A model generated the notes under the pieces. The model was given only the letters and a program-made list of their open reading frames with translations, did no database searches and was not told the DNA's origin. From the IMG/VR virus record IMGVR_UViG_3300028887_000113: 64,000 bases of DNA; one strand, written 5' to 3'. Made by a program: the position numbers and the translations under genes. This document shows positions 8,364-54,063 of the stretch, one piece after another; the stretch's first letter is position 1, and every line of letters begins with the position of its first letter. This DNA is from an uncultured virus (IMG/VR IMGVR_UViG_3300028887_000113). Taxonomy: Duplodnaviria; Heunggongvirae; Uroviricota; Caudoviricetes.

Positions 8364-8480
8364 CGAAAAACGTCCAATTTTATACAGAAATTAGTTTATA
8401 ATATCGTGCAGAGAAAACTTCCAACCAGCGCCTCTAGGCGCTGGGGAACACTTCAGGGTGGCAGATGATAGGCGCGGAAC

Positions 8481-8515
8481 TTGACAAAAAAAATTAATTT
8501 AACTATTTATAAACT
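8481..8515 (+). promoter_or_regulatory. Sigma70-like promoter overlapping a phage late promoter upstream of tnpB
   Basis: TTGACA (8481-8486), 17 nt, TATTTA (8504-8509); ATAAACT at 8509-8515. Confidence 0.6.
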
Positions 8516-8540
8516 ATATAAAGATTAGAACTATTGAACC

Positions 8541-9701
8541 ATGTTTCCGCGTGCCTATAACGTCAGACTGTATCCTAACAAGCAGCAAGAAGTCTTGCTC
8601 GGCAAGACTTTCGGCTGCTGCCGTAAAGTCTACAACTGCATGCTGGAAGTACGCAAGAAATCATACGAGGCGACCGGCAAGCAGTGCCGGTCTAAGCCGA
8701 CAGATTTCTACGGAGAGTTCCCCTTCTTGAAGGAAGTTGACTCGAACGCCTTGACAGCCGAAGTGCTTACGTTGAATACGGCGTTCAAGAACTTCTTCGA
8801 GCGGAAGGACGACGGAGTCGGCTTTCCGCAGTTCAAGGCGAAGCACCGGGACAAGGATTCGTATACGAGCTACCGAACGAAGGACAATATCCGCGTAGAA
8901 GGGAGGAAACTCCGCCTACCGAAGGTAGGCTTCGTTCCCTTCCGCAATTACGAAGAGATCGACTGGTCTGTAATGGACATCAAGCACGTGACCGTGTCAC
9001 GGTCACGTGCCGGGAAGTACTATGCTTCAATCTTGGTCGAGGAGACGGTGCCGAAGGCACTGCCGACGACTAATTCAGAAATCGGCATTGATCTTGGATT
9101 GAAGGAATTCTGTGTTACAAGCGACGGCGAATCCGTCGCGAATCCTCGTTTCCTCAAGGAATCAGAAACTCGTATCGCTGACCTTCAGCGAGCGTTTTCC
9201 AAGAAGCAAAAAGGTTCAAAGAGACGAGAGGCATTGCGCGTGCGTATCGCTCGCGAACATGAAAAAGTTGCTAACCGAAGGAAGGATTTCCTTGACAAGC
9301 TGTCTACAAGACTGCTCCGTGAGAACCAAACGGTGGCGGTCGAGGACTTGGACGTACGCGAGGTCGCCGAGGGCGACCACGCGAAGTCCGAGCATGACAC
9401 GGCTTGGAGGATGTTCCTGAACAAACTACAGTACAAGGCTGAATGGTACGGAAGAACCATCGTCCGGGTAGGACGATGGTTTCCCTCGTCTCAGCTATGT
9501 CACTGCTGTGAGTTCAAGAATACGTTGACAAAGGACTTGAATGTACGGTCGTGGACATGTCCGCAGTGCGGCACGTCGCACGACCGTGACGTTAATGCTG
9601 CCATCAACATCCTTACCGAAGGTAAAAGATTATTCGCCGCAGGGACTGCGGTTAAAGGCGCGGGAAACATCGATACGCAACGCGAAGCGCAACGCCTTTA
9701 G
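8541..9701 (+). CDS. tnpB: RNA-guided endonuclease TnpB
   Basis: HTH start RAYNVRLYPNKQQ...FGCCRKVYN, RuvC triad GIDLG / VAVEDL / DRDVNAA, zinc ribbon CHCC...CPQC. Confidence 0.95.
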   Translation: MFPRAYNVRLYPNKQQEVLLGKTFGCCRKVYNCMLEVRKKSYEATGKQCRSKPTDFYGEFPFLKEVDSNALTAEVLTLNTAFKNFFERKDDGVGFPQFKAKHRDKDSYTSYRTKDNIRVEGRKLRLPKVGFVPFRNYEEIDWSVMDIKHVTVSRSRAGKYYASILVEETVPKALPTTNSEIGIDLGLKEFCVTSDGESVANPRFLKESETRIADLQRAFSKKQKGSKRREALRVRIAREHEKVANRRKDFLDKLSTRLLRENQTVAVEDLDVREVAEGDHAKSEHDTAWRMFLNKLQYKAEWYGRTIVRVGRWFPSSQLCHCCEFKNTLTKDLNVRSWTCPQCGTSHDRDVNAAINILTEGKRLFAAGTAVKGAGNIDTQREAQRL

Positions 9702-9737
9702 GCGATGCGTAGTTCACTAGTTTCCAAATCGGAACGC
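9634..9737 (+). ncRNA. Cis omega-RNA (reRNA) conserved 3' scaffold plus predicted guide TAGTTTCCAAATCGGAACGC
   Basis: Overlaps the tnpB 3' end and the right end. The scaffold ends at GTAGTTCAC (9717), and blocks are conserved with the copy at 35115-35199. The 5' boundary is unknown. Confidence 0.7.
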
Positions 9738-17279: not shown

Positions 17280-17318
17280 AGTTTATCAGTTTTCGGATGG
17301 TGCCCATACTGATAAACT
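17280..17318. promoter_or_regulatory. Back-to-back divergent late promoters
   Basis: AGTTTATCAGTT at 17280 (minus, gp6) and ACTGATAAACT ending at 17318 (plus, gp14). Confidence 0.7.
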
Positions 17319-22781: not shown

Positions 22782-24331
22782 TCAACGTATAGGTAAATAT
22801 ACTCATTGACTTTTTGACGTGTCCGGGACTCTTAGCTCCGAACCATCCATCTTGAATAAGCCATTAGGCAACCAGAAGAAGCCCTCTGTCTTAGCCAGTC
22901 TGGAGAACTCATTTGAGTGAGGTATAGCGGGTAGGTCTATCGCATGGTTCTTAGCCGCATTGATATCGGCATCCATCACGAGTCCGCATATAGGACATAT
23001 ATAGAGCTTTCCCTTCCTCGCCTTTTTGAGTACGTGTCCGCATCCGGAGCAGCGTTGAGAACGGTAGGCATTCGACTGCAGATTTATTCGGACACCGAAC
23101 TCCTCTGCAACTTGTGCCAACCTAGTCACTATCTCCGGATTAGACCAATGTTTCATCTTTCTGGACGTATTCCGCCCATAGTTAATGTTAGTTATTTTTT
23201 CAAGGCCGATTTCCTTGATATTGCTGAAATCAAGCCTCTTGACTGCATAGTTGATATAATTCTTTCGTTCAGTTTGCGCTCGACCGAAGGCTTTTGACCC
23301 TTTCTGTTTCCTAGCGAGCTTGTCTGTTATCGTATCTAGGTTAACTTTAATGACTCGGTCTGGTTCATTCTTCTTGGGTGCCTTTACGAGCATATCGGTA
23401 GTAGTCTGTCCATCAGACAAGGACACGCAAGTTAGTAGTCCTTGATCAGCGCCTACCTTGATTCCGTCAGTCTTGATATGCACATCCTTCTCCCATCGTA
23501 ACTGGACGCCGTATTCATCTATCAAGTATCCGTTGCATCGCGTCCAAGTACCGTCGGTATATTTAGACAAGTGTTTCTGTTGGCATACTGGTACACTGAA
23601 TATGGGCAGTCCAGTTGACTTGATGCGAAGGAACCCATAGAACTCTCCATTCGGCGTAGGACTGAATTCAGCGCACTTGCTGGAGATTTCTATCCCAGCA
23701 TCGGACAAGTCTGGTCTGGACGGCTTTTTAGACTCGATGGTTTCCCACAAATGTTCGAGATATCGCCCTTTCCCAGCTTCCTTGTCAAATACATCTAGTC
23801 TAGCCGCATTCTTGCTACAGATAGCACGCAGCTGTCCGCTTAACTGTGTAACTAGTGAACTCAACATTCTAGCAGACAGCCATGTATCTACCTTAAAACG
23901 GTTATAATCAAGATATTTAGGAAGTTCATACTTGTACTTATCTGGATTGAATTCATGTATGCCGTCGTCTTCTAGCCAAGTATATCCGTTTGACCAGATA
24001 TCATCACAGAAAAGCTGCATTACTCGACGCCATTCTGCAAGAAGCATAGATATTGCCTCTTTTTTGCCAGTATTGGCAAATTTTAGCGTATGTCTAGTCG
24101 AACGTACTATCATATACAAGTAATGCCCAGTTGACGCAATATTGTGGCTGTCTGCATCAACTGGGCATACGAAACCCATTCATAGAACTACAAGACAGCC
24201 ACGAATTGCTTGTTCTAACCAAAGTTTATATGTTTTCATTTTTATAGAAAATTACATCATTTCTATATGAATGTCGTTCTAGACCATTCTTTGACATAGA
24301 TAAGTATATTTTGCTATATTTTTAGTATTAT
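22782..24331 (-). mobile_element. tnpB-only insertion (1555 bp including one CTAAC copy)
   Basis: Bounded by GTTAG at 22777-22781 and 24332-24336. Removal fuses the flanking reading frames in phase. Confidence 0.75.
22803..24113 (-). CDS. tnpB: TnpB/Cas12f-like RuvC nuclease (distinct clade from 8541-9701)
   Basis: VGADQG, IGLEKI, SQRCSGCG...CPICG, DADINAA. The likely start is MIVRSTRHTLKFAN (24113); 24179 is an alternative. Confidence 0.9.
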   Translation of the reverse strand: MIVRSTRHTLKFANTGKKEAISMLLAEWRRVMQLFCDDIWSNGYTWLEDDGIHEFNPDKYKYELPKYLDYNRFKVDTWLSARMLSSLVTQLSGQLRAICSKNAARLDVFDKEAGKGRYLEHLWETIESKKPSRPDLSDAGIEISSKCAEFSPTPNGEFYGFLRIKSTGLPIFSVPVCQQKHLSKYTDGTWTRCNGYLIDEYGVQLRWEKDVHIKTDGIKVGADQGLLTCVSLSDGQTTTDMLVKAPKKNEPDRVIKVNLDTITDKLARKQKGSKAFGRAQTERKNYINYAVKRLDFSNIKEIGLEKITNINYGRNTSRKMKHWSNPEIVTRLAQVAEEFGVRINLQSNAYRSQRCSGCGHVLKKARKGKLYICPICGLVMDADINAAKNHAIDLPAIPHSNEFSRLAKTEGFFWLPNGLFKMDGSELRVPDTSKSQ

Positions 24332-28002: not shown

Positions 28003-28040
28003 AGTTTATCAGTTCGGACTGAACCAAAAAATGATAAACT
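28003..28040. promoter_or_regulatory. Divergent late promoters
   Basis: AGTTTATCAGTT at 28003 (minus) and GATAAACT ending at 28040 (plus). Confidence 0.7.
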
Positions 28041-29496: not shown

Positions 29497-29602
29497 AGTT
29501 TTCGTCCTTGACTTTGCAGATAGTTTATCACAATGTTACACGTTTTGTTTCAATATGGTATAATTTTCATATCAAAATAAACTACAAGAAAAGGAGCTTC
29601 CT

Positions 29603-29900: not shown

Positions 29901-30647
29901 CTATTTCTTTTCCTCGGCGGTCTTCTTCTTGCGTACGGCAAGGATGCGTTTTGCTTCCTTGCAAGCAGCTTCCTCGCTGACACCTTCCTCGTCAACCAGT
30001 TTCTTAGCCAGTTCGATGACCTTGTCGTCCATGTACGGATCGACCTTTTCAAGGACATCGACCGCATCGGACAAGTTGCCGTGATCCATCGCCAAGTGGG
30101 CATTGATCTCGTCCTTCTGACGCGTTTCCTCACGTTCGATCACACCAGCATACTCGTCAATATTGACGCACGTATGGAGAATGTTCTCGTTCAAAGAGGT
30201 GAACTTGATGTACTTTGACTTCTTCTTGAGGTCGGTTACTTGCTGCATGAATGCACGAGACACGATCTGCCCCAAGTAGTAGTAAGGATCCTTGTTCTTG
30301 GAATTCTCCGCCATCTTGTTCGGGTCGAACGAATGGCAGTACTTCAGTGCGCAGAACTGGGCACGAGCGTACATTTCTTCCTTCCAAGAATCCGTGTACT
30401 TGCGCCATGACATCATGCCAGCGGTCTTCTTGATGACGACCTGGATAGCAGTGGCGAGGTCATCCGATACCGGATAACCCTTGCCGTACATTTCCACGTC
30501 TTTTTTGTGTTCGAGGAGAAGTCTGGTCAGATAATCCTTATCAATCTTGTCGTACTTCATCGAGGCGACCGTCTGACGGCCTTTATCGTCAAAGACTGCA
30601 GGGTTTGCCGGACGCTTCTTCGGACCGTTAATGTTCTTGTTGTTCAT
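29901..30647 (-). CDS. gp55: Late transcription sigma factor gp55-like
   Basis: WRKYTDSWKEEM...LKYCHSFDPNK...DPYYYLGQIVSRAF matches the gp55 pattern F..Y...EEM..A...LKY..NFDP.K..NPFAY.TQI...AF. Confidence 0.85.
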   Translation of the reverse strand: MNNKNINGPKKRPANPAVFDDKGRQTVASMKYDKIDKDYLTRLLLEHKKDVEMYGKGYPVSDDLATAIQVVIKKTAGMMSWRKYTDSWKEEMYARAQFCALKYCHSFDPNKMAENSKNKDPYYYLGQIVSRAFMQQVTDLKKKSKYIKFTSLNENILHTCVNIDEYAGVIEREETRQKDEINAHLAMDHGNLSDAVDVLEKVDPYMDDKVIELAKKLVDEEGVSEEAACKEAKRILAVRKKKTAEEKK

Positions 30648-31772: not shown

Positions 31773-34346
31773 TTAATCCCTCTTCAAAGCTTCATGGTAC
31801 GTGTCCGAACTTTCATCTGTCTCGATAGGCGTATGTATCGGGTCGCCTCCGTAGGTGTATGCCTCTCCATCGTCGTCCGTTACCAAAATTTCCTGTGTCA
31901 TAAACCAGATGCAACTTGGGTCATACTGGTTATACTCGGCTACGAACTGCGACTTGCTCATCGTAGTCGTATAATACGCGACACCAAACAAATGACTCAT
32001 GCCGACTAGATATCCTTCAGGATTCTTCCCGGTACCGTCACAAGTCTGGCAAATCTCGCCGGTTTCTTGATCGACACCAGTTCCTTCACAGTCCTCGCAC
32101 ATATCACCTATCGCATCAACAGTCTTCGACGCGTCTTCCATATCTGCACATGTCGTGCGTTTAGTCGAATGCGGCAGACTATGGGCGAACAAGTTGGTCG
32201 TGCACGTAATACGCCACGGCATATACAACGTGTCGCTATCCAATCCGTTCCTAGTAACCGGCCTATCGTCTGTATCATATCCAATAAGGAATTCCCACTT
32301 GTCATCACATATACCAAACGCTTCCCCAGCATCACCACCGGCAATAACACCGGTCGTCTCGGTGAACCAGTCGTGCTCATTTACATCAACCAGATTCTCT
32401 GTCGCCTTTCCCTTCACATGCAAATGATATACGTAATAGTCCATCCCATTCTGCTGGGTTCCCGATGCAACATACGCATACAGATGCCATCCATCGTCCT
32501 CCAGACGCCAGAACTTGATTGTAAACCCGTTGCGGTCATTGCTGTTAGTGTAGCCGGACGGCATTCGTATGTTATACACACGAGGTACGTCGCACATACT
32601 GTCGCACATCGGAGTCCGTATGCACTTAGGATTCTGTACGTACTGTCGATGTTCTACTAGACTTAACCCAAAATCGTAATCAAAATCCTCATTGTCAACC
32701 ACGCAAGTTTCCTTTACTGGGTCTCCGGGCGTCCTTCCTTGATATCCGACAAGCGCATCCTCCTCGCCAACCTTAATCTGGTAATCAGTTATGCTGAACT
32801 GATTATATTCCGCATTTGGAGCTATTGATGCCCCGGCGCATACTATCTTTACAGTGCGCTGCAGATGATGCATATAGCATGACGGCGTCAAGAAGTAATA
32901 GTCAATATGAAACACGCCGCCACACTTACAGAAATCGATATCGTTCTGGACAATGATATGGGACGTAAAATCGACACTCGTTCCATTTACATCAGATTCC
33001 AGCACATCGGCAAGCTTTTCCCAAGCACCGCATGTCACCAGATAGATGCCGTCCTCGCCGTTCTTCTGGTTAAGCAACGCCACAACATTTCCGGACGATA
33101 CATTGTAATTACAGATAGTACGGTTGCCGCACTTGTACGGTACGTCGTCACGGCATACATAATCTACCGGATAGCTAGCGCGAGCACCCAAGTCGACCAG
33201 TACAGTATTGTCTACCGGCATCGGTGTCGGAACACGGTAACAGTCGGTTTCACAACCAGTCTCTACGTCATTGAACCCTTGCCAGCTTCCGGATCGCACT
33301 ACCCACAGTCCGTTCTCGGACTCGACAAACTGGTGCGCAAGCCATACGACATCGCCATCAAGCAACTGGACTCCGTCCAGTTTCAACAAGCCAGCCTTAT
33401 GGGACAAATTCTTGTTGTATTTCAGACGAACCATCGTATAGAAGTAATCTTCACAATCTACGGACGGATTGATACGGAAATACACGGTATCGCCGTACTT
33501 CGGATTGGCCGCCGCATCCTTAACAGAATTACCATTGTCGTCTATAGTATCATACACCAACGACATCGTGCCAGTCTGATAGCATTCTTTCTCAATCGTA
33601 ATGCCTTCGGTCGAATAACGCTGCTGCTCATCGGTACCCGAATCGTATTTATAACGAATGATCCCTATACTCGGATCGCCGAACAGCTGGTTACCATAGC
33701 TACAATATATGTCGTACTGGGCACACGGCTCAGAACCCTTTCCGTCCGTGGCCAGCATTCCCGGATATACCGTAAACGCCGCAGTTCCTACGCCGGTTTC
33801 ATCAATATCAAACTCAATCTCGTCAGGTTCGACTACATACTCGGTTTCGCCGTTATACAGCTTAATACTGAGCCCCTCGGTGAGATTCTCCCCATGCACA
33901 ATAACAGAAACGCTCTCATCTACACGAGACGCCAAGTTTTCCACATAAGTAATGGTTGGTAATTCTTTGCCAAATACAGTCGCATATAGATATACATCAA
34001 TACGCTTGTATGTCAAGTCAAAATCATCGTAATAGTCAGCCCCGTTCCTGGCATACACGTCCGCATCCACGTCAACATAGCCAACGACAAACCTTAGCGG
34101 TATTTTCCGATAGACTTCGGCTTCGCCAGCGTATAAAGGAGGAATATTAAGCAGTACATTGTCTTCACCTTCAAGTGTCAAATAAAATCCATTCGACACT
34201 CCGTTTATCGCTTCTAGTTCGATCGAACGGACGCGACCGTCATCCTTGCCATCATCGTCGATGGCAAATACGTCGATAGGTTCATTATGCTCCGAAAACG
34301 GTACTGTATAATAGCCTAAAGTAATTGACGGTACGCCCATAGTCAT
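31773..34346 (-). CDS. Cys-rich probable virion protein
   Basis: Two 'LDGV.L..GD.V.L..Q....ENG.(W/Y).V..G.W'-type repeats seen in phage structural proteins, plus two CxxCxGTG motifs. Confidence 0.6.
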   Translation of the reverse strand: MTMGVPSITLGYYTVPFSEHNEPIDVFAIDDDGKDDGRVRSIELEAINGVSNGFYLTLEGEDNVLLNIPPLYAGEAEVYRKIPLRFVVGYVDVDADVYARNGADYYDDFDLTYKRIDVYLYATVFGKELPTITYVENLASRVDESVSVIVHGENLTEGLSIKLYNGETEYVVEPDEIEFDIDETGVGTAAFTVYPGMLATDGKGSEPCAQYDIYCSYGNQLFGDPSIGIIRYKYDSGTDEQQRYSTEGITIEKECYQTGTMSLVYDTIDDNGNSVKDAAANPKYGDTVYFRINPSVDCEDYFYTMVRLKYNKNLSHKAGLLKLDGVQLLDGDVVWLAHQFVESENGLWVVRSGSWQGFNDVETGCETDCYRVPTPMPVDNTVLVDLGARASYPVDYVCRDDVPYKCGNRTICNYNVSSGNVVALLNQKNGEDGIYLVTCGAWEKLADVLESDVNGTSVDFTSHIIVQNDIDFCKCGGVFHIDYYFLTPSCYMHHLQRTVKIVCAGASIAPNAEYNQFSITDYQIKVGEEDALVGYQGRTPGDPVKETCVVDNEDFDYDFGLSLVEHRQYVQNPKCIRTPMCDSMCDVPRVYNIRMPSGYTNSNDRNGFTIKFWRLEDDGWHLYAYVASGTQQNGMDYYVYHLHVKGKATENLVDVNEHDWFTETTGVIAGGDAGEAFGICDDKWEFLIGYDTDDRPVTRNGLDSDTLYMPWRITCTTNLFAHSLPHSTKRTTCADMEDASKTVDAIGDMCEDCEGTGVDQETGEICQTCDGTGKNPEGYLVGMSHLFGVAYYTTTMSKSQFVAEYNQYDPSCIWFMTQEILVTDDDGEAYTYGGDPIHTPIETDESSDTYHEALKRD

Positions 34347-34991
34347 TTATCCTTCTGTAGGCGGCTGTGCCACTTCCGGAAGCGGTATTCCGCACAGTTT
34401 TCTGATTGTGTTTCCAGTATTCTTGAGTGCCTGAACGATCGGAGCAGACTTCTGGCTAAACGGCTTAAAATACTTCTCGCACTTCGCCGGGAGCCATTCC
34501 TGAGGGTTCTGCAGAGACACACAAAGGTTCTCGATGAAGGAGAGCATCATTTCCGGATTGATGGCGGCACCCTGCACGTCATCCTTCCAGTCGGCCTCGA
34601 CCTTCGTCTTGTATGAGGACATTTCCTTGACACGCTGCACTGCCTCGCTCTTGTTGATGCCTTCCTTGACCTTGCGGTTAACCTCATCGAACTTTCTCAA
34701 GTTGTTCTGGTATGCGTCACGGAATTCCTGGGAGCCTTCACCGATATTAACTTGCTGCGGAACGAAATATCCGTTCGGCTGTACGCCTTGCTGATATTGC
34801 GGCTGCATCGGCTGCTGGTATCCCTGCGGAGGATACTGCGGCTGCATCGGCTGCTGCGGATATCCTTGCTGTGCATAATTCGGCTGCGGTGCATACTGCG
34901 GAGAGTAACCCGGTTGCACGTACGGATTCTGCGGTTGAGGTTGTTGCATCTGGCCACGAGGGGCAATGTTAGTGTAGTCTGGTTGTTTCAT
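34347..34991 (-). CDS. Q/P/Y-rich hypothetical late protein
   Basis: QQPMQPQY repeats, RBS GAGGA, late promoter at 35009. Confidence 0.65.
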   Translation of the reverse strand: MKQPDYTNIAPRGQMQQPQPQNPYVQPGYSPQYAPQPNYAQQGYPQQPMQPQYPPQGYQQPMQPQYQQGVQPNGYFVPQQVNIGEGSQEFRDAYQNNLRKFDEVNRKVKEGINKSEAVQRVKEMSSYKTKVEADWKDDVQGAAINPEMMLSFIENLCVSLQNPQEWLPAKCEKYFKPFSQKSAPIVQALKNTGNTIRKLCGIPLPEVAQPPTEG

Positions 34992-35015
34992 AAATCCTCT
35001 ACACGCCTAGTTTAT

Positions 35016-35199
35016 ATAATAATGGCGTCATCTCAAAGGTGCAAACTATAAATAGAAATTGCCTATTGGAAACTGTGACGATATTTACTACATTAATAAT
35101 GTATCGCAAGGTACTCGCCGCAGGAACGGCGGTTAAAGGCGCGAGCGTCTCTATGAGACTAACGCGAATCTCACCGTATTCCAATGGTGCGTAGTTCAC
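35016..35199 (+). mobile_element. Protein-less mini-element derived from the tnpB element
   Basis: Starts after TTTAT (35011-35015) and ends in GTAGTTCAC (35191-35199); no ORF of consequence. Confidence 0.65.
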
Positions 35200-35219
35200 C
35201 AGTTAGGCACATTTCGTCT
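35101..35219 (+). ncRNA. Stand-alone omega-RNA with predicted guide CAGTTAGGCACATTTCGTCT
   Basis: 27/29 identity to 9634-9662, shared AACGCGAA and TGCGTAGTTCAC, and a 5' GCAA-tetraloop hairpin. Confidence 0.7.
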
Positions 35220-35239
35220 AAGTGGATAAATTACTCTAA

Positions 35240-35268
35240 AAAAGGCCCGGTCTTGCGACCGAGCCTTT
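35240..35268. terminator. Intrinsic terminator (gp22 on minus; possibly also the omega-RNA on plus)
   Basis: AAAAGGCCCGGTC-TTGC-GACCGAGCCTTT. Confidence 0.7.
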
Positions 35269-35295
35269 CCACCATAACAAGGAGATTTTATGGAA

Positions 35296-36210
35296 TTACG
35301 CAAATTTTCCTAGGCCGAGGTTCTCAAACGCCTTGACGTTTGACATGGCTGCCGCAATGTCGGAAGCATCGTCCGTAGGAACATCCATCAGGTCGACGTT
35401 GACATCTTCGAGAAGTGTATCCATACCAGCAGCAAGTCCGGCACGCTGCGGCTTGAGACCCTTCGTCAGAGACTCGATCTTCGGAGTGACCTTTTCTGGT
35501 TCCTCGTCATCACACTCGAATATACCGTCGATAGATTCCAGCTTGTTTTCTCGATCTAACTGGTCGTCGATGTCCTTCAATGCGTTCACGACATTGTCCA
35601 TGTTGAGCTTTCCGTCACGTTCCGGATCAACGTCCAGCATATACACGTCGTTGGAAGAACCGTCGATGAACTTCATGATACTGTCAGACGTAATGTCACG
35701 GACGTCATAAGGCAAGAAGTGGTTCATCACTGCCTGTACAACGTTCGGCTTCATGCCCTGCACTAGTCGCATGATGTAGGACTTCTTCTCTGCATCGTTC
35801 AGCTTGTCCTTCAACGCCTCACGTTCCGCATAGGCGGTCTTCAAGTTGGCGTTAGCCTTGGCCAGCAAGTCACGGAGCTTCTTGGTTTCCTCGGAAGTCG
35901 TGCCGTTCAAGGAAATAGTAATACCGACGCTTTCAAGGACTGCAGACATGGCACTAAGTGCCTTGAACATCTTGTCATTGATAGCATCGGTCTTCATCTT
36001 GGAAATATTCTCGGCAACAGCCTTACCGATCATCTTCTCAGCCTTCGATGACACGGCTTCCAGCATCTTATCAACTTGCTTACGCTGCTTGTCCTTATTG
36101 TCTTCTTGAACAGAAGCCAATTCGGCATCACATGCGGATTCAATTTTCGCAATCACATCTGGATTTATGCCAGAATATTCCTCTTCTGTCAATACTGAAC
36201 TTAGATTCAT
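35296..36210 (-). CDS. gp22: Prohead core scaffold gp22-like
   Basis: Helical and acidic, with many (L/I/F)E(S/D/C/N) motifs; follows gp21. Confidence 0.65.
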   Translation of the reverse strand: MNLSSVLTEEEYSGINPDVIAKIESACDAELASVQEDNKDKQRKQVDKMLEAVSSKAEKMIGKAVAENISKMKTDAINDKMFKALSAMSAVLESVGITISLNGTTSEETKKLRDLLAKANANLKTAYAEREALKDKLNDAEKKSYIMRLVQGMKPNVVQAVMNHFLPYDVRDITSDSIMKFIDGSSNDVYMLDVDPERDGKLNMDNVVNALKDIDDQLDRENKLESIDGIFECDDEEPEKVTPKIESLTKGLKPQRAGLAAGMDTLLEDVNVDLMDVPTDDASDIAAAMSNVKAFENLGLGKFA

Positions 36211-36962
36211 GGATTAAATCCTCGCAATGCAGAAATTAGACCATTTTTATCATAAAGACCACCGCCTACAGAAATAGTGGCGTAATGGTGCGCAATCTCG
36301 GCCCCGTACCGGTTCATGATGTCCGTAACGGACTCGACCAGCGGTCGTGGTCCGGCAACCGATTCTGTCAAAGCCTTAGCCTTGCCTTCGGCAGACTCCT
36401 GACGTGCGGTAAAGATGGCGTCCTGACCAAACGACGGATTACCCACAACATCAATGGTAATCATCGTATAGTCGTCGGCAATTTCCTCGTGCTCGCCCAT
36501 GTTGATCGTACTACCGGCACCGCGCAGCGAGAATCCCGGATGGTATCCGCCACGGATCAATGCGGCAAGCTGCTTACCAGCAACCGTCTCTTCCATCACG
36601 ACCATGCGCACCTTGAGGAGGTCGCCTTCCATATGCAAGTCCTCAATCAACGCACAGATAGACATCAAATCCATCTCGAAGATCGGATAGTCCTTCGCAG
36701 TTCCGTCCGGACCGAGTCGCGGGTGATTCAAGGAAGCGGCAAGACGGCCCTTCATGACGAAGTCCTTCACCAGACGGTTGGCCTCTCGCTCGATAATCGG
36801 CTTCGGGTACGCACGGTTGTTGATACCCGGTACGTTGCACTTGATCGCAGTTCCTTCAATGATCAAACGTTTTACATTGTTACCGAACATGTCCTTGCGT
36901 TCAACCAAGGATACGGTAGAACCCTCGAATATAGCGTCGCCGTATAATTGATTAGTTGCCAT
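36207..36962 (-). CDS. gp21: Prohead protease gp21
   Basis: NNRAYP, LNHP, GFSLRGAGS, IDVVGNPS; start at MATNQLY. Confidence 0.9.
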   Translation of the reverse strand: MATNQLYGDAIFEGSTVSLVERKDMFGNNVKRLIIEGTAIKCNVPGINNRAYPKPIIEREANRLVKDFVMKGRLAASLNHPRLGPDGTAKDYPIFEMDLMSICALIEDLHMEGDLLKVRMVVMEETVAGKQLAALIRGGYHPGFSLRGAGSTINMGEHEEIADDYTMITIDVVGNPSFGQDAIFTARQESAEGKAKALTESVAGPRPLVESVTDIMNRYGAEIAHHYATISVGGGLYDKNGLISALRGFNP

Positions 36963-37209: not shown

Positions 37210-38280
37210 ATGCAAAATCAAAACCAGAATCCAGCCAAAGATCAGTGCAAGTTCAACAGTTCCGACACGCTGCACATACCCGGACTTGAACCGAACCATA
37301 TCGGATACTTCCGTCGACTTGCAAAGCAAATCGGCGTCGAGGAAGCCAGACTGAAATATAACGGAATGTCCAAGGAAAAAGCCGTCTATCTGGCATCGCT
37401 CGACGACAAGATGGACAACTACGGAATCAAGTGGACTGTCGAGGTACTCAAGAAACGATATGCAGACAAGAAGTTCGCACCGTATATCGAACCGAAACCT
37501 CGTGACGACTATGACTATTACGATTATTACGACCGAGACGAATTCTTCGGCCCCAAAGATACAGTAACCTACGCAAGATGGCTGTACAACCGGTACGGTG
37601 CACGAAAAGTGGCCAAACAATTCCATATATCCGACAACATGGCAGAACGAATCGGAACATCATCACTTCCGGGCTCCACGAAAGTCGACGAGCTGGAAAC
37701 TGAAGACGATATCGACGAAAAAGAATCAGAAATCTATGCGCGAAAGGCCGCAAAATCAATTAACGCATACCAGATGAAGCAGTTTCACAATGGAAACTCC
37801 AGAAAACTGAAAATCCGACTCAACAAACTGGCAGAAAACGACACCGCATTCGTTCTGAGAAAGCTCATCGAGACCGAAGACTATAACATCAAGGCAAAGG
37901 AATGCTATTTCGACTATATCCAGTACAATTATGACAAGAAATCGGAAAACCTAGTGGCAGCTATCGAACGACTGTCCAAAATGGACTGGAAATACTGGTG
38001 GGCCGACGACCAGGAAGGTACCGCGTCATACATATTCTACGTAGTACTGCCTACCGGAAAGCAAGTAAGCTGGCACGGTATGCACATCAAGGACGTAGAA
38101 AACGTACCCAAAGACAACGATGCCGAATGGGACGGCGAACTGTCGTCTACACTCCCGAAACTGCTGGAATGCGTCGAGGCAGTTTGCCCGTCGATTAATG
38201 AAGAAAAGTTCGACAAAAAGAAATGCCTTGACGAACTAGAAAAATACTCACATCAAGAGTTCGAACGAGTCCAGTCGTAG
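37210..38280 (+). CDS. Hypothetical protein
   Basis: Long plus-strand ORF preceded by TGCTATATT; C-terminal LPTGKQVSWH motif. Confidence 0.7.
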   Translation: MQNQNQNPAKDQCKFNSSDTLHIPGLEPNHIGYFRRLAKQIGVEEARLKYNGMSKEKAVYLASLDDKMDNYGIKWTVEVLKKRYADKKFAPYIEPKPRDDYDYYDYYDRDEFFGPKDTVTYARWLYNRYGARKVAKQFHISDNMAERIGTSSLPGSTKVDELETEDDIDEKESEIYARKAAKSINAYQMKQFHNGNSRKLKIRLNKLAENDTAFVLRKLIETEDYNIKAKECYFDYIQYNYDKKSENLVAAIERLSKMDWKYWWADDQEGTASYIFYVVLPTGKQVSWHGMHIKDVENVPKDNDAEWDGELSSTLPKLLECVEAVCPSINEEKFDKKKCLDELEKYSHQEFERVQS

Positions 38281-40409
38281 CGGTACTGTCCGCAGTCGTA
38301 TATGCGGTACAGTCCCCGTTCTAGCGTAATCTCGTGCTCGGTCTTGCCTTCATCACCCGGACCGGCAATCTTGTGCCTCTGGAACTGCATACGGTTCTTC
38401 CGGATATCGCCGTCCACGATGAAGTAACCGGGCGAGCTCATCGCCGTGAACTCAAATCCAAGTTTTTCGTAGAACGCATGCCCCGTGCTCCACCTAGCGT
38501 CCGCATACGATACTATGTGGTCCACGTCGTGATGGTCCTTCATGAACGCACTGAACAGCTTACCGGCACCGCCTACCACGTTCACGTCACGGTCGGAACA
38601 AAATCGCACAAGTTCCACTACGTTGGCATCGAAGCGGCTCTGGCCGAACGTCATCAAGGCTACAAGACGATTTCCAGAATACAATCCATATCGGTAAGGA
38701 GAATTCACAGCACCTTGAATATGATTACGGTCGAGGAAGTCTCGTGCCGTCTGAGAGTCTACATCCTTCACCTCGCAGTCTCGCGCATATACCTTGTCGA
38801 CAGACGACATACCGAACAGATAGCGGAGCCTGGACTTCACGATTTCGTTCTTGTACATCCACTCGTCGGAGAAGATATGGATCAGACGGTAGCCCTTCTC
38901 CTCGGCAAGAAGCTTCTTCCTCAAATGATAGCCTGGGTCATGGAACAGCTCGGAATGCCAGTAGACACCGTCATACTCCACGATAATCTTGCTGTCCTCG
39001 ACCACGATATCTGCTCCATAAGTGCCAAGGAAATCACGGTCGTAGTGCGTCACCTCGTGGCCAAGAGACTTGATGAAATCAGATACTTCCCTCTCCTCCA
39101 CGGATACCGGAGGATTCTTCGGCATGCAGTGAGTGCACGGCGTCAGCCCAGCATCCGTACGGAACTTGATGAACTGTGCCTGTTCAGTACACTCGTGTCC
39201 GCACACGTTGCACTTGAACTGCACCGCCCAGAAACTCGAAAATGAGATACCCACACAGTTGTACGAGCCGAGCATCTTATTATATCTTGCCAGATGCTCC
39301 TCTCTGTACGCATCACTCTGCGCATACCACGGAGCATTATAGCGTTCCATCGATGTCTGAGTAACCTTCTCAATAAACAATGGAGACTGGGCAAAGTTAG
39401 GTACATTGTAATGCTCCATGCAAGTCTCCTTGTACTTTTCCTTGACGGTTTCACTCTGAGTGAAGTGCGGCACGTTATAGACTCGCTGGCTGGTTTCATG
39501 TACCTTCTCATTCCAGTCCTTCGTCTGTGAGTAGTTCTCGACGCCGTACTTTCCCTTCATTGTCGCCTTGTTCGCGTCCTTGAACTTGTCCGACTGGAAG
39601 AAGTGCTCAACACCGTGCTCGGCAAGCATCAGCTCCTTCAACTTAGCCTTTCCTTCCTCCGACGCGGAATACCACGTGCCGTACTCGGCTACTTGCGTCT
39701 CGTAGCTCTTCTGCTTGAACTCGTCAGTCTGCACGTAGTACTTTCCGCCGTTCTCGGCGAACTGGCGCTCCTTCCACTTCGAGAGGAATTCCGGATCGTG
39801 CATATTGTGGTCGACACCGTGCTTAGCCATGTACCCGGCACGCGCCGCGTCGTTGCCTTCCTTGCCGGAGAAGAAGTTCGGACGGTTGAACTTCTCCATG
39901 TTGGTTGCCTCTACCGCCGCCCGGCCGGCATCGCTGTGAAGATAAGTCGTAGCACCGTACTTCGCCGTGAACGTCGCCTTCGCCGCATCTTGCACTTCCT
40001 TCGACTGCATGGCGAAACGTACGCCACGCTTGGCAAGGTGTGTCTGCTGCGCCTTCTCTTGGGCGGCGGCGGTGCCTCCGCCGTTCGTCGTGCCGTATCG
40101 CTCCATGCAAGTCGCTACCGTCTTCGCACGCTTGGCTGCCGCCTTTTCCGGGTCGTTCTTGAACAAGATACCGAAACACTTGTGAGAGCAAGTATCTCGG
40201 TAGCCTTCGGTAATAGACCTGAACTTAGTAGGCTTTCCGCATACCTTGCACACTCCCTCATCAGCCAGCTTAACATACTCATCATAGTAGGTCTTAGTAT
40301 CCTTACTATGCGTCTTGTTCACATGCGAAGATATGCCACGTACCGAATCAAACGTGGCAGCATGACAAATAGCACACTCGTATAGGCCGTCCTTATTTTT
40401 CAACAGCAT
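38253..40409 (-). CDS. Hef-like homing endonuclease (zinc fingers, KYG repeats, PD-(D/E)XK, GNAT-like tail)
   Basis: ADIVVEDSKIIVEYDGVYWH, HIFSDEW, YARDC..FLDRNHIQG, GGAGKL, YADARWS, IYDCG; RBS AAGGAGG. Confidence 0.8.
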   Translation of the reverse strand: MLLKNKDGLYECAICHAATFDSVRGISSHVNKTHSKDTKTYYDEYVKLADEGVCKVCGKPTKFRSITEGYRDTCSHKCFGILFKNDPEKAAAKRAKTVATCMERYGTTNGGGTAAAQEKAQQTHLAKRGVRFAMQSKEVQDAAKATFTAKYGATTYLHSDAGRAAVEATNMEKFNRPNFFSGKEGNDAARAGYMAKHGVDHNMHDPEFLSKWKERQFAENGGKYYVQTDEFKQKSYETQVAEYGTWYSASEEGKAKLKELMLAEHGVEHFFQSDKFKDANKATMKGKYGVENYSQTKDWNEKVHETSQRVYNVPHFTQSETVKEKYKETCMEHYNVPNFAQSPLFIEKVTQTSMERYNAPWYAQSDAYREEHLARYNKMLGSYNCVGISFSSFWAVQFKCNVCGHECTEQAQFIKFRTDAGLTPCTHCMPKNPPVSVEEREVSDFIKSLGHEVTHYDRDFLGTYGADIVVEDSKIIVEYDGVYWHSELFHDPGYHLRKKLLAEEKGYRLIHIFSDEWMYKNEIVKSRLRYLFGMSSVDKVYARDCEVKDVDSQTARDFLDRNHIQGAVNSPYRYGLYSGNRLVALMTFGQSRFDANVVELVRFCSDRDVNVVGGAGKLFSAFMKDHHDVDHIVSYADARWSTGHAFYEKLGFEFTAMSSPGYFIVDGDIRKNRMQFQRHKIAGPGDEGKTEHEITLERGLYRIYDCGQYRYDWTRSNS

Positions 40410-42012
40410 CTTTTGCCTCCTTCTTGTAGACGTAACGGTAGTTTCCGCAGTCGTATATGCGGTAGATACCAAGAGATTTCATAATTTCATGTTCACTCAT
40501 ATTCGGGTCAAATCCCCGCTCGACCAACTTATACTTTTGGTACTTCATGCGAGATTCCCTGATATTTCCATTCACGTAATAGTAATTCGGTTCTGTCGTG
40601 CCATCATATACAAAGCCGAGTTTCTCGTAATAGTTGCCGAAATTACTCCAGCGACGGTCTGCGTAGGTCACCAAGGTCTTTCCGTCGAGAGGATGATCAT
40701 CAAGAAAGTGCTTGAGCAGCCTACTGGCACCTCCGACGACAGTCGTGTACAATGCATTACAGAATCGTAGCATTTCCATTTCACCGGGTGAATACCTAGC
40801 CGGTCCAAACGTCATTACAGCAACCATACGGCCATCATGAACAAGGCCGTACCTATACGTGTCATTACATGCTCCTTGGATATGATTCTTGTCCATAAAT
40901 TTGGTAGATTGTTCATAATCCAACGTAATAATCTTACAGTCCCTAGCATAGACCTTTGTTGTCTTTCTTGGTATGTCCTTATGTAGTACACGGCATAGTC
41001 TCGACTTGACGATTTCCTCATGCAGCTCCCATTCGTCGGAAAATACATGGATTAGATGATATCCGAGTGACTCCGCATAATTGGTTTTATCCAAATGGTA
41101 TGTCTTGTTATGGAATTCCTCGGTATGCCAGTGCAGTCCATCGTACTCGACAATGACCTTCTCATTCTCGCATATAATGTCAGCGCCGTATTCACCCAAG
41201 AAATGACGTTCTTTGTGCGACGTATCTACACCCAAGGACTGGATGAACTTTTCTATGTTCACTTCGCCAGCCGATCTGAAATTACGCTTCGGAAAACACA
41301 CGCTGCATGGCGTATTCTTCGCATACAGTCGTGCATTGACAAAAAATACCGTATCATCCAAGACCGATCCACACTTGTCGCACTTATAGGTCAGATCAAC
41401 TTTATTAGGGTGTTCGATGACATGGCATCCATATTGAGCGAACTCACGGTTATAATAATCGGTTGAGATTCGTAAATTCGCCTTAGACCAGTAGTCAGCC
41501 CCATACCGTAAATGATTGGTCGCTAGCGTCTTTTCGCGATATTCGTCAGTTTGAGTATACGATTCTTTACCATATTTAGCCAAATTGCTGGCATGATACT
41601 TGTTGATAAAATCATCACATTGTGAATAGAACTCGACGCCATGCCTCTCTAGCATGGTAGCCTTTCTGGTTTCAAGAATCTTCTTATTGTACTCGCCATG
41701 AGTATCTTTATTCAATTGATCCACAGTAGCTTGTCTGGCAGCGATTTTATGGGCATTACGGTCAGTATCGGCAGCAATATGCTTGGCCGAACATTTCTTG
41801 CTGCAAAATTCCATGTAGCCATAACCAATAGTACGGAATTTAGTAGGCTTACCGCATTCGGCACATTTACCATCAGTCGGCTTTGCCATATACTTGTCAA
41901 AGTACGCTTGCGGCGATAGCTCATGCGTTTTACATACATGAATACCAAGCGAAGACGCCTTTTCGTATTCAACGATTTTTCCAAGTTCTTTACATACATT
42001 ACATTGAAACAT
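40393..42012 (-). CDS. Hef-like homing endonuclease
   Basis: Same architecture: VEYDGLHWH, HVFSDEW, NHIQG, GGASRL, IYDCG; RBS GAGGTGAGG. Confidence 0.8.
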   Translation of the reverse strand: MFQCNVCKELGKIVEYEKASSLGIHVCKTHELSPQAYFDKYMAKPTDGKCAECGKPTKFRTIGYGYMEFCSKKCSAKHIAADTDRNAHKIAARQATVDQLNKDTHGEYNKKILETRKATMLERHGVEFYSQCDDFINKYHASNLAKYGKESYTQTDEYREKTLATNHLRYGADYWSKANLRISTDYYNREFAQYGCHVIEHPNKVDLTYKCDKCGSVLDDTVFFVNARLYAKNTPCSVCFPKRNFRSAGEVNIEKFIQSLGVDTSHKERHFLGEYGADIICENEKVIVEYDGLHWHTEEFHNKTYHLDKTNYAESLGYHLIHVFSDEWELHEEIVKSRLCRVLHKDIPRKTTKVYARDCKIITLDYEQSTKFMDKNHIQGACNDTYRYGLVHDGRMVAVMTFGPARYSPGEMEMLRFCNALYTTVVGGASRLLKHFLDDHPLDGKTLVTYADRRWSNFGNYYEKLGFVYDGTTEPNYYYVNGNIRESRMKYQKYKLVERGFDPNMSEHEIMKSLGIYRIYDCGNYRYVYKKEAKDAVEK

Positions 42013-42157
42013 ATTTATTAACCTCACCTCAAATATAATAACACGAAATGCAATAGTCAACTGTTTTTTAATAAATAATTAAAAAATATTTTATTACATT
42101 CAGTCTAGTACGTCTTTTATCTTCTACAAGACAGCTGGTCAGAAATATATACAAGTA

Positions 42158-43875: not shown

Positions 43876-45531
43876 TTATCTGTGCCAGATGAACCTTATG
43901 TTACCGCAGTCGTATATACGGTATATTTTCCTTGAGAGCATGATATCATGCTCGCTTTTTTCCTTGTCGAAACCAGCTTGAACGAGTTTTGCCTTTGTGA
44001 ATTCCATTCGGTTGTGACGGTGGCCGTTGATGACATAGAAGTATGACGGTCTGGATATACCGTCGAACATGAAGCCGAGCTTGGGGTAGAAAGCGTCTGA
44101 CGAGCTCCAGCGTCTATCGGCAAAGGAGATGATAGATGAAATCTCTGGATGCTCGGTGATGAACTTATGGAACAGCTTAGATGCGCCGCCTACGACATTG
44201 GTGTTGATCTTGTTGGCGAAACGCAGCAGTTCCATGCCGTCACCGAATCGGTTCTTGCCGAAAGTCATTACGGAGACAAGGTTTCCTTGATAGAACAGAC
44301 CGTACCTATAGGAAGAAACGCAAGACCCTTGCAGATGGTTTGCATCAAGGAAATTATCGGCCTCCTTTGCCGAAATTGTTCCGACGGCGCATTTCCTTGC
44401 AAATATGCGGTCATTGATACCGAGTAGGCCACGAATCCTTGACTTGACAATATCGGGTTGATATTGCCATTCGTCCTCGAATATATGGACAAGATGGATA
44501 CCGTTTTCCTCGCATAGATTAGTCTTTGATAAGTGATATGTAGGAGACTTGCGCCTTTCGTCATGCCAGTACAGACCGTCGAACTCTATAGCGATCTTGC
44601 TGTCTGGCAGATAGATATCGAGTTCCGTATAAGGGATGACGTTACGGACGGACTTCATTACGTTCTCGGAGCCAACAAGTGACTCAACGAATTTATACAG
44701 AGAGATTTCCTCGTTGGAACGGGAAGTCTCTGCCGGAGTGCATACGGTACACCAGTTGACACCATACCTAAATAGCCTCATATATCCGGTATTGATAGGG
44801 ATATCGAACTCGTGTCCGCATTTACGGCACTTGCAGTGGAACTGCCTATCGTCATAGGACAGTATATAGCACTGGTCTTGCAAGAATTTCTGGTACTTGT
44901 CTATTGTCTTCTTGTATACGGTCTGTCTAGCCTTGTCCGGATTGACGAAGTTCGGCACTCCATAGCGTTCAGTTTTCGTGATGGCGGACTGCTTGGAATT
45001 GTTGAAGAACGGGTCGTCGTACTTCAGTTGTTTTGTAGCCGCAGCCTGTTCCTTATTGACGTAGTTAGGGTCTCCATATTTTACGGACTTGGTGGCTTTA
45101 CGCTTTTCTGGATTGTTATAGCCAGCCTTACCATACCATTGTTTCTTGGTAGCCTTGATCCGTGCGCCGTTGACGTAATTCTTGTCACCGTAACGAGTTT
45201 CCTTGGTGCGGTCGATCTGGTCGTGGTTATTAAAGTTTTCGTCACCATGCAGCACTAGGTTAGTAGCCTTTCGCTTGGATACCGTATCTTTATCGTTTGC
45301 TGTGCATTTCTTGGAGCAGTGTTCATAGTATCCACGGTTGAGACGTCCTGAGAACTTGGTAGGTGAGCCGCATAGCTTGCAGATGCCGTCATCTGGTTTC
45401 CTTAGGAACTTGTCATAGTATTCTTGGAGAGATACATCCTTGTGGTCTCTGGACAGATGATGCGACAGGCCAGCATAGGTATTATGCTGCTTATTGCAGA
45501 GTCCACAGGTTGTCAAGTAAATCAAGTCCAT
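43876..45531 (-). CDS. Hef-like homing endonuclease
   Basis: Zinc fingers, YG-D/N repeats, ELDIYLP..IAIEFDGLYWH, HIFEDEW, ARKC..NHLQG, GGASKL, IYDCG. Confidence 0.8.
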   Translation of the reverse strand: MDLIYLTTCGLCNKQHNTYAGLSHHLSRDHKDVSLQEYYDKFLRKPDDGICKLCGSPTKFSGRLNRGYYEHCSKKCTANDKDTVSKRKATNLVLHGDENFNNHDQIDRTKETRYGDKNYVNGARIKATKKQWYGKAGYNNPEKRKATKSVKYGDPNYVNKEQAAATKQLKYDDPFFNNSKQSAITKTERYGVPNFVNPDKARQTVYKKTIDKYQKFLQDQCYILSYDDRQFHCKCRKCGHEFDIPINTGYMRLFRYGVNWCTVCTPAETSRSNEEISLYKFVESLVGSENVMKSVRNVIPYTELDIYLPDSKIAIEFDGLYWHDERRKSPTYHLSKTNLCEENGIHLVHIFEDEWQYQPDIVKSRIRGLLGINDRIFARKCAVGTISAKEADNFLDANHLQGSCVSSYRYGLFYQGNLVSVMTFGKNRFGDGMELLRFANKINTNVVGGASKLFHKFITEHPEISSIISFADRRWSSSDAFYPKLGFMFDGISRPSYFYVINGHRHNRMEFTKAKLVQAGFDKEKSEHDIMLSRKIYRIYDCGNIRFIWHR

Positions 45532-45601
45532 GATGAAAATATACCATAAAACCGATAAACTGTAAAGATATTGCAGAACGTGATGAGCAAAATGAATTAA
45601 A

Positions 45602-50494: not shown

Positions 50495-50600
50495 AACATG
50501 CACAGTTTATCAGTTGTTCGAAGGAAATTACTCTACATTGGACAAAAAAGAAGCCACCACTTTAGTGGTGACCTCTTCAAGAGAACAATATGAAGATTGA

Positions 50601-54025: not shown

Positions 54026-54063
54026 ATACCACCGAAAGTGTTTGTACGCAGTTTATCAGTTTT

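What the first reader, a model, noticed from the sequence alone, without database searches (positions are those of the whole stretch)
35005..35210. Removing the mini-element also rebuilds a consensus late promoter
Seen: CCTAGTTTAT (35006-35015) joined to CAGTTAGG (from 35200) gives TAGTTTATCAGTT. This contains the AGTTTATCAGTT found at 17280, 28003, 50504, 54050 and 58893, and sits 18 nt upstream of the gene starting at 34991. It is a second case of the same insertion rule as at 8400. TTTAT plus the first five guide bases (CAGTT) therefore match at least five of the phage's own late promoters. Inferred and speculative: besides cutting the empty allele, TnpB could bind its own late promoters through the seed and tune late transcription.
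Basis: partly seen in the sequence, partly recalled or inferred. Interest (0 to 1): 0.75.

Follow-up and report, generated by a model that had tools for sequence, protein, structure and literature searches.

The report
Guide-RNA mini-transposon splitting a phage promoter
A 184-base, gene-less offshoot of a TnpB transposon that still carries its guide RNA sits exactly inside a promoter motif of a huge rumen phage, and its match to the phage's other promoters is a side effect of where it landed, with no sign that it regulates them.

Summary
35016-35199 is a 184-nt insert with no target duplication. All 8 IMG/VR relatives examined lack it, and 4 of them carry exactly the predicted joint CCTAACTG|ATAAACTAGG. 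The full TnpB element at 8400-9717 follows the same rule, and its empty site is also seen.

The insert is a non-autonomous IS200/IS605-type element. Its last ~100 nt are a structurally conserved omegaRNA scaffold (83 bits to my model; covariation). It lies 3' of TTTAT, the complement of the core of the phage's commonest promoter motif, ATAAACT (20 copies against 9 expected).

Of 16 independent insertions of this element family in related phages, 12 follow AGTTTAT.

The regulatory reading is not supported:
- The guide is simply the flanking DNA.
- It matches the empty allele of three relatives at 21 of 21 bases, but the phage's own promoters at no more than 5.
- TnpB keeps its nuclease motifs.

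The most likely role is selfish homing or retention, or the element is a fossil. This scan had already noted the same family landing in phage promoters on other DNA.

The parts
35016..35199 (+). 184-nt gene-less IS200/IS605-type mini-element (left end at 35016, right end at 35199)
   Evidence: Absent from 8 of 8 relatives with an exact scarless joint. The last 12 nt are identical to the right end of the TnpB element, and 29 of 32 nt match in an inner block. Sister mini-elements of 155-186 nt align along its length.
35101..35199 (+). omegaRNA scaffold (three to four hairpins, ends ...GCGTAGTTCAC)
   Evidence: Covariance model R1 gives 83.2 bits, E 7e-21, at 35105-35199; the next best chance hit scores 15 bits. 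On 14 sequences 86.3% of cells pair against at most 40% when slid. The covariation score is 0.252 against 0.123, reached by 0 of 500 shuffles.
35200..35220 (+). Guide part of the omegaRNA (flanking DNA). The first 5 nt, CAGTT, are the upstream half (AACTG on the minus strand) of the split promoter motif
   Evidence: 21 of 21 bases after the TAM are identical to the empty allele in L001, L002 and L003, 10 in L006 and 6 in L004/L005. The phage's own promoters match at most 5.
35009..35015 (-). Promoter core ATAAACT. Its complement on the + strand holds the TAM TTTAT (35011-35015)
   Evidence: ATAAACT occurs 20 times against 8.99 expected, reached by 0 of 100 shuffles. 18 of 20 copies face an ATG within about 45 nt (read by eye). 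It is invariant at this site in 8 of 8 relatives.
35016..35100 (+). Left-end remnant plus a weak sigma-70-like promoter for the omegaRNA (TTGGAA 35066-35071, 17 nt, TACATT 35089-35094)
   Evidence: It aligns with TTGACA-N17/18-TAAACT/TATATT of the sister mini-elements. It matches only 8 of 12 positions, so the scan did not list it. There is no left-end hairpin as single-stranded DNA: -1.6 kcal/mol, z +0.5, against -13.6, z -3.2 for the full element.
34347..34991 (-). 214-aa gene served by the split promoter (no family match)
   Evidence: ORF list. No PHROG or Pfam hit. Orthologues lie behind the same motif in 8 relatives.
35233..35272 (-). Intrinsic terminator of the upstream 304-aa gene, 30-odd nt before the promoter motif
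   Evidence: Hairpin followed by UUUUUU, -25.5 kcal/mol, z -4.6. Conserved in relatives.
8400..9717 (+). Full-length TnpB-only element (tnpB 8541-9701), inserted by the same rule after AGTTTAT (8393-8399). Possible source of TnpB in trans
   Evidence: Pfam HTH_OrfB_IS605, OrfB_IS605 and Cas12f1-like_TNB, all above cut-off. PDB ISDra2 TnpB E 7e-78. Empty site in G004 and G003. ATAAACT lies 26 nt before its ATG.
17280..17291 (+). Intact copy of the 12-mer AGTTTATCAGTT. Others lie at 28003-28014, 50504-50515, 54050-54061 and 58893-58904
   Evidence: Each lies just upstream of a minus-strand ORF start.

Best explanation
35016-35199 is a non-autonomous, protein-less derivative of an IS200/IS605-family element of the TnpB-only (IS1341-like) sort. 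It amounts to a PATE-like cassette that encodes an omegaRNA. It is inserted on the + strand immediately 3' of TTTAT, with no target duplication. That TTTAT is the complement of the core of the phage's most frequent promoter motif, (AACTG)ATAAACT. The motif drives the minus-strand 214-aa gene and is probably read by the phage's gp55-like sigma factor. The insertion parts AACTG from ATAAACT but leaves the core in place (it now reads TATAAACT), so the gene probably stays expressed. This step is inferred. The element's guide is the flanking DNA, which is why its first five bases equal the consensus of other promoters: a by-product of the landing site. If the RNA is made and a TnpB accepts it, the complex would cut the uninterrupted allele of related phages during co-infection. 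Recombinational repair would then copy the cassette in, or the rival would be damaged. That is homing or retention as shown for IS605-family TnpB, and for this element it is inferred. The family prefers such sites because its TAM is embedded in the promoter core. In a genome that is 94% coding, about half of the non-coding TTTAT sites are promoter cores.
For: - Scarless 184-nt insert; empty site in 8 of 8 relatives.
- The full element obeys the same rule, and its empty site is seen in 2 relatives.
- Right-end homology.
- Model hit of 83 bits.
- Helices kept through compensatory changes across 14 sequences.
- Sister mini-elements in two other phage records.
- 12 of 16 independent phage insertions follow AGTTTAT.
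- Window counts: TTTAT 137 in all, 37 non-coding, of which 17 lie within AGTTTAT.
- ATAAACT enriched in the window and in three relatives: 85, 62 and 56 copies against 42, 25 and 34 for the reversed control.
- gp55-like sigma factor at 29901-30647, phrog_234, E 1e-16.
- A terminator precedes the motif.
- The guide matches the empty allele at 21 of 21 bases in 3 relatives.
- TnpB closely resembles ISDra2 TnpB, with GIDLG, VEDL, HDRD and CxxC...CxxC present.
- The filled allele is also present in an independent sample: an X4 contig spans 34000-35242 with 26 differences and no gap.
- PATEs that encode omegaRNAs used in trans are described in PMC10055086 (passages read).
Against: - No Y1 TnpA in 5 of 5 related phage records or in 102 window ORFs of 85-260 aa, so how the element reached this site is unexplained.
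- The left-end hairpin that TnpA would need is missing.
- The scaffold is of the G007 type, with an extra hairpin. The resident TnpB element is of another subtype whose TnpB is about 75% identical to the G007 ones, so use in trans is not assured.
- The putative omegaRNA promoter matches only 8 of 12 positions.
- There is no transcript evidence.
- No contig with the empty allele was seen in the four runs laid.
- The excess of promoter sites over 'TTTAT plus survival in non-coding DNA' is modest (P about 0.02-0.05), and the window-derived baseline may not fit the other phages.
- The class of the promoter (late) is inferred.
Confidence: 0.8

Rival explanations
1. One reading: TnpB loaded with this RNA binds the phage's own TTTATCAGTT promoters through TAM plus a 5-nt seed and tunes late transcription.
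For: Five promoters in the window carry TTTAT plus CAGTT, and G004 has 10 copies of the 12-mer. tnpB has its own ATAAACT motif, so it may be made alongside the late genes. TldR relatives repress promoters, and off-target ChIP peaks show similarity only in the TAM-proximal ~6 nt (PMC10705468, passages).
Against: The 5-nt match follows automatically from landing in a consensus motif. Own promoters have 4-7 mismatches in the first 12 guide positions. Sister copies at the same motif have unrelated guides. G007 has several copies of the family but 0 copies of the 12-mer. The nuclease motifs are intact, unlike TldRs. Five bases is below the reported ~6-nt seed. Only this one cassette among those seen carries that guide.
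Confidence: 0.04
2. Inert fossil: the cassette is a decayed remnant that is neither transcribed nor used, and it persists only because it is harmless where it sits.
For: The left-end hairpin is lost. The promoter is weakened relative to the sister mini-elements. No TnpB of the matching subtype lies in the 64-kb window. No TnpA was found. Four near-complete or partial relatives and the nearest record have no further mini-element.
Against: All helices of the scaffold still pair in this copy, with compensatory differences from its relatives. The same filled allele persists in a second sample at about 2% divergence. The rest of the roughly 350-kb genome could not be searched.
Confidence: 0.3
3. 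Promoter rewiring: the insertion changes expression of the 214-aa gene, either by removing AACTG or by supplying an outward -35-like hexamer.
For: The scan finds TTGAGA (35036-35031), 16 nt, TAAACT (35014-35009) on the minus strand, 9 of 12 positions. The region holds 3 such sites against 0.6 expected. AACTG precedes the core in the 5 exact intact 12-mers and is restored at this site when the insert is removed.
Against: A consensus match only. AACTG is not kept at the orthologous promoter in the more distant relatives L007 and L008, so it is probably dispensable. T4-type late promoters need no upstream element (established knowledge, recalled).
Confidence: 0.1

Closest known systems
PATE-like non-autonomous IS200/IS605 elements that encode omegaRNAs (Meers et al., PMC10055086)
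   Same: No protein gene. Keeps the transposon right end with an omegaRNA scaffold. Sits 3' of a TAM without target duplication. Would need TnpB in trans.
   Different: It lies in a huge virulent-type phage, not a bacterial chromosome. No left-end hairpin and no TnpA in sight. The TAM coincides with a promoter core.
ISDra2 TnpB and its omegaRNA (Deinococcus radiodurans; PDB 8bf8, 8exa, 8h1j)
   Same: The resident TnpB aligns over residues 4-368 at E 7e-78, with the RuvC and zinc-ribbon motifs. The guide is the DNA flanking the right end.
   Different: The flank here is TTTAT (or TTTAG in 3 copies), whereas TTGAT is what I recall for ISDra2. The elements here carry no tnpA.
TldR, TnpB-like nuclease-dead repressors of prophages (PMC10705468)
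   Same: A phage-borne TnpB relative with a guide RNA whose TAM and target overlap a promoter.
   Different: TldRs have lost the nuclease and use guides of 9-16 nt that match the target promoter. Here the nuclease motifs are intact and own promoters match only 5 nt.
Free-standing homing endonucleases of T-even phages (Seg and Mob; marker exclusion), as reviewed in PMC13565253
   Same: A selfish nuclease system in a T4-like phage that would cut the allele of a co-infecting relative lacking the insert. This window also holds several HNH-type homing endonuclease genes.
   Different: Recognition would be by RNA guide plus TAM, not by protein. The review treats transposon homing into co-infecting phages as theoretical (passages read).

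Membership tests
IS200/IS605-family non-autonomous element (PATE-like) with omegaRNA | Insertion 3' of a short TAM with no target-site duplication, and a scarless empty site | tested here: met
   8 of 8 relatives lack the insert. The joint AACTG|ATAAACT has no duplicated bases, and the boundaries are unambiguous.
IS200/IS605-family non-autonomous element (PATE-like) with omegaRNA | Right end homologous to that of a TnpB-encoding element, folding as an omegaRNA scaffold | tested here: met
   83.2 bits; 11 of 24 pairs changed on both sides, covariation reached by 0 of 500 shuffles.
IS200/IS605-family non-autonomous element (PATE-like) with omegaRNA | Subterminal hairpins at both ends for the Y1 transposase | tested here: not met
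   Left end: no hairpin (-1.6 kcal/mol, z +0.5) against -13.6, z -3.2 in the full element. The right-end terminal hairpin is present (helix 5). It therefore works like a PATE-borne guide cassette but is probably no longer mobile by TnpA.
IS200/IS605-family non-autonomous element (PATE-like) with omegaRNA | No protein-coding gene | tested here: met
   The element is 184 nt. Only chance ORFs of 66 and 51 aa overlap it, and these were not searched for relatives.
IS200/IS605-family non-autonomous element (PATE-like) with omegaRNA | A cognate TnpA somewhere to mobilise it | tested here: not met
   Y1_Tnp was found in 0 of 5 related phage records (the control rings in 6 of 14 genomes) and in 0 of 102 window ORFs. 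One lies in the Fibrobacter MAG, but its ends are unrelated. The rest of this phage's genome is not held.
TnpB RNA-guided nuclease (partner gene 8541-9701) | OrfB_IS605 RuvC fold with D-E-D and a zinc ribbon | tested here: met
   Three Pfam domains score above cut-off. The alignment shows GIDLG, VEDL, HDRD and CxxC...CxxC. That these are the catalytic positions is recalled from ISDra2.
TldR (nuclease-dead TnpB repressor) | Loss of RuvC catalytic residues or of the C-terminal domain | tested here: not met
   the motifs and the C-terminal zinc ribbon are present.
T4-type late promoter (gp55-dependent) | A short A/T-rich -10-like box upstream of late genes, no -35 box, and a phage gp55 sigma factor | tested here: inconclusive
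   A gp55-like gene is present (phrog_234). ATAAACT is enriched and faces gene starts. The T4 box TATAAATA itself is not enriched (3 copies against 2.7 expected). No start sites or timing data exist.

The most novel reading that the evidence does not exclude
Guide-only cassettes like this one may be phage-against-phage weapons that are hard to escape. The family's TAM is the promoter core, and the first guide bases are the promoter's upstream consensus. A co-infecting relative therefore cannot mutate the TAM or seed without damaging a needed promoter. TnpB, made from its own ATAAACT promoter, would cut every unmarked rival allele and either convert it or exclude it. Landing in promoters would then be an adaptation of the element, not only a safe harbour.
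Probability: 0.2. Interest if true: 0.7.

Novelty: new member of a known kind. Interest (0 to 1): 0.4.

Why it matters
This is a clean natural case, with both filled and empty alleles in hand, of a TnpB guide-RNA cassette in a virulent-type jumbo phage.

It adds a second, independent insertion to the evidence that this element family lands at the core of phage promoters. It also shows that a tempting 'guide matches promoters' signal can arise trivially from the landing site.

If the cassette is active, it would be a worked example of RNA-guided homing between co-infecting phages. A 2026 review still treats that as theoretical (PMC13565253).

My two full-text searches pairing TnpB with phage late promoters or with phage homing found no paper describing promoter-core targeting.

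Tried and rejected
- The whole genome of the window is not held, so a TnpB of the matching subtype or a TnpA elsewhere in this phage could not be sought.
- The named phage collection gave no match by megablast of 33500-36500 or by tblastn of the two flanking proteins.
- Rfam at gathering scores found nothing in the window.
- The exact 15-mer scan of IMG/VR gave 77 loci, of which only 8 were real right ends; the remaining 69 look like chance matches.
- The T4 box TATAAATA at 35047-35054 inside the element looked like a late promoter for the RNA. That box is not enriched in this phage and is not conserved in the sister mini-elements, so I dropped it.
- The MFE fold of 35056-35199 proposes a long closing stem. 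The family alignment supports the terminal hairpin instead.
- The host TnpA in the Fibrobacter MAG shows no end similarity to these elements.
- Reads: no joint skipping 35016-35199 was seen in X1, X2, X4 or X23. RNA contigs of X23 cover parts of the flanking genes but not the element. These are contigs, so neither point says anything about absence or expression.
- The earlier-findings look-up by place returned nothing.

Full report
**Setting.** The window (46.8% G+C) is the structural-gene region of a distant T4-like phage. It holds a gp55-like late sigma factor (29901-30647), major head protein, portal, prohead protease, baseplate wedge and tail sheath stabiliser, with several HNH-type homing endonuclease genes among them (PHROGs). 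Its relatives are IMG/VR contigs of up to 348-355 kb. The window's own genome is not held, and the named phage collection has no match.

**The observation.**
- The 12-mer AGTTTATCAGTT occurs 5 times exactly and 9 times within one mismatch, against 0.31 expected.
- Read in the direction of the genes it is AACTGATAAACT.
- Its core ATAAACT occurs 20 times against 8.99 expected, reached by 0 of 100 shuffles.
- 17 of the 20 lie in non-coding DNA by a crude gene map that is 94.5% coding.
- 18 of the 20 face an ATG within about 45 nt on the same strand. I read this by eye; the exceptions are 45555 and 50454 on the + strand.
- The core is also about twice as frequent as its reversed control in three related genomes: 85, 62 and 56 copies against 42, 25 and 34.
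- At the site in question it follows a strong terminator of the preceding gene (-25.5 kcal/mol, z -4.6).
- The T4 box TATAAATA is not enriched (3 copies against 2.7 expected).

I therefore take ATAAACT as the core of this phage's main promoter, probably for late genes and gp55-dependent. No transcript data show this.

**The empty site.** Eight IMG/VR loci encode relatives of the 304-aa gene upstream (60-96% identity), and five of them were also found with the 214-aa gene.
- All 8 lack the 184 nt.
- L001, L002, L003 and L006 read ...CCTAACTG|ATAAACTAGGCGTGTAGAGG....
- L004 and L005 read GATAACTG|ATAAACTAGG.
- L007 and L008 keep only ATAAACTAGGC.

The insert is therefore 35016-35199, exact to the base, with no target duplication. 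The full TnpB element (8400-9717) behaves the same way. G004 and G003 carry GGAAACTA|ATAAACTAGTTTCTG in front of the orthologue of the 1705-aa gene. The nearest record, G001, has the element.

**What the insert is.** Its last 12 nt equal the right end of the TnpB element, and an inner 32-nt block matches at 29 of 32, at the same spacing.
- A covariance model of the last 94 nt of nine copies scores it at 83.2 bits (E 7e-21). The full element scores 116 bits and the best chance hit 15 bits.
- A gapped pattern from the conserved blocks found sister mini-elements of 155-186 nt in two further phage records: L121, L122 and L123 in the 260-kb G007, with two of these sites also present in G008.
- These share with the window's copy the segment GTATCGCAAGGTACTCGCC, an extra hairpin absent from the window's full element, and a sigma-70-like promoter just upstream (TTGACA, 17-18 nt, TAAACT or TATATT). 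In the window's copy this promoter is weakened to TTGGAA, 17 nt, TACATT.
- On 14 right ends (4 mini-elements, 8 full phage copies, 2 from a bacterial MAG), 24 pairs in 5 helices are 86.3% paired, against at most 40% when the partners are slid. 11 pairs change on both sides. The covariation score is 0.252 against 0.123 in shuffles, reached by 0 of 500.

The RNA part has therefore been kept by selection. The left end has not: as single-stranded DNA it has no hairpin (-1.6 kcal/mol, z +0.5), whereas the full element has an 8-bp one (-13.6, z -3.2).

**The partner and the missing transposase.**
- The 386-aa TnpB has all three Pfam domains. It aligns with ISDra2 TnpB at E 7e-78, with GIDLG, VEDL, HDRD and the zinc ribbon in place. 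That these are the catalytic positions is recalled.
- ATAAACT lies 26 nt before its ATG.
- No Y1 transposase was found in 5 of 5 related phage records or among 102 window ORFs of 85-260 aa.
- A Fibrobacter MAG from rumen holds TnpB copies 88-94% identical to the phage's, which points to the host. Its single Y1 gene has unrelated ends.

How these elements reach new sites is thus open.

**The landing rule.** I could read the left flank of 16 independent insertions in phage records.
- 12 follow AGTTTAT: the two in the window, L091, L092, L093, L096, L136, L139, L122, L123, L142 and L147. The boundaries of L092, L093 and L147 were set by eye, to within 1 nt.
- 4 do not: L121 (GGATTTAT), L144 and L146 (TTTAG), and the decayed L094 (TTTGAG).

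All 12 therefore sit at the upstream edge of a promoter core, pointing away from the gene. Their right flanks, which become the guides, are unrelated to one another. In the window, 17 of 37 non-coding TTTAT sites lie within AGTTTAT. 'Insert at TTTAT, survive only outside genes' thus predicts about half. 12 of 16 exceeds that only modestly (P 0.02-0.05). After insertion the core is preceded by T from the left end (TATAAACT), so the promoter core stays whole.

**The regulatory idea.** The guide of this cassette is the DNA after 35199.
- It matches the empty allele of L001, L002 and L003 at 21 of 21 bases after the TAM, L006 at 10, and L004 and L005 at 6.
- It matches the phage's own promoters at no more than 5, with 4-7 mismatches in the first 12.
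- The extended 12-mer is specific to certain lineages: 10 copies in G004, 3 in G002 and none in G007, although G007 carries at least four tnpB copies and three mini-elements.
- The TldR preprint reports a ~6-nt seed and transient off-target ChIP peaks (PMC10705468, passages). Weak contact at TAM plus 5 nt cannot be excluded.

Nothing here suggests a function for such contact, and the match needs no explanation beyond the landing site.

**Reads.**
- Contigs of the two probable source samples hold the filled allele without differences.
- A contig from an independent sample (X4) spans 34000-35242 with 26 differences and no gap, so the insertion is not private to one assembly.
- No empty-allele contig was seen.
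- Other contigs carrying only the omegaRNA core are present at higher depth.

**Comparison with what is known.** PATE-like elements that encode omegaRNAs and depend on TnpB in trans are described in PMC10055086 (passages read). Homing into co-infecting phages is listed as a theoretical mode in PMC13565253 (passages read). Full-text searches for TnpB with phage late promoters or with phage homing returned no paper on promoter-core targeting. Earlier notes of this scan on other DNA reached the same view of the family (e1-5748875) and of a guide-promoter match as a by-product (e1-5525367). I re-derived both here from my own calls.

**Verdict.** The thing is a new member of a known kind. The selfish homing or retention reading, or simple decay, fits the evidence. 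The transcription-tuning reading is not supported.

Noticed in passing
window 22803-24179 (-): A second, very divergent TnpB/Cas12f-like gene (458 aa). Pfam hits only the TNB zinc-ribbon domain. It aligns with Cas12f chains at E 1e-9 with the E and the last D motif present, and it has its own ATAAACT motif at 24223-24229. Relatives G007 and G008 have similar open frames of 402-466 aa.
   Followed up: partly
L114, L134, L138 (Fibrobacter sp. ruminal MAG, handle G009): The bacterial MAG carries TnpB elements 88-94% identical in protein to the phage's, with near-identical right ends. This suggests Fibrobacter as host or exchange partner. One copy's left flank reads TTTAG rather than TTTAT.
   Followed up: partly
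G007 (IMG/VR record of 260 kb; L121-L123, L136, L139, L142, L144): One phage record holds at least four tnpB copies (one frameshifted, one cut by the contig end) and three protein-less omegaRNA mini-elements. That is an unusually high load for a phage.
   Followed up: partly
window 38253-40472, 40393-42060, 43876-45531, 21090-22694 (all -): Four large HNH/homing-endonuclease-like genes (phrog_3339, phrog_559) are packed around the major head and portal genes. The first two ORFs overlap by 80 nt.
   Followed up: no
window 45550-45561 (+): A near-consensus promoter motif (AACCGATAAACT) points rightwards between two leftward genes, with only a tiny ORF behind it. It may be an antisense or orphan promoter; unexplained.
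   Followed up: no
window 17280-17318, 28003-28040, 29522-29583: Promoter motifs occur as divergent pairs 15-50 nt apart, serving genes on both strands. The same pairing shows in the motif positions of G002 and G007.
   Followed up: no
window 35009-35036 (-): The left end of the mini-element supplies TTGAGA 16 nt upstream of TAAACT, a 9-of-12 sigma-70-like hybrid promoter facing the 214-aa gene.
   Followed up: no
run X4, contig record 20: In another sample, a contig whose match to the omegaRNA core starts at 35094 is preceded by what looks like the 3' end of a tRNA gene (GGTTCGAATCC...). This suggests a related cassette next to a tRNA.
   Followed up: no
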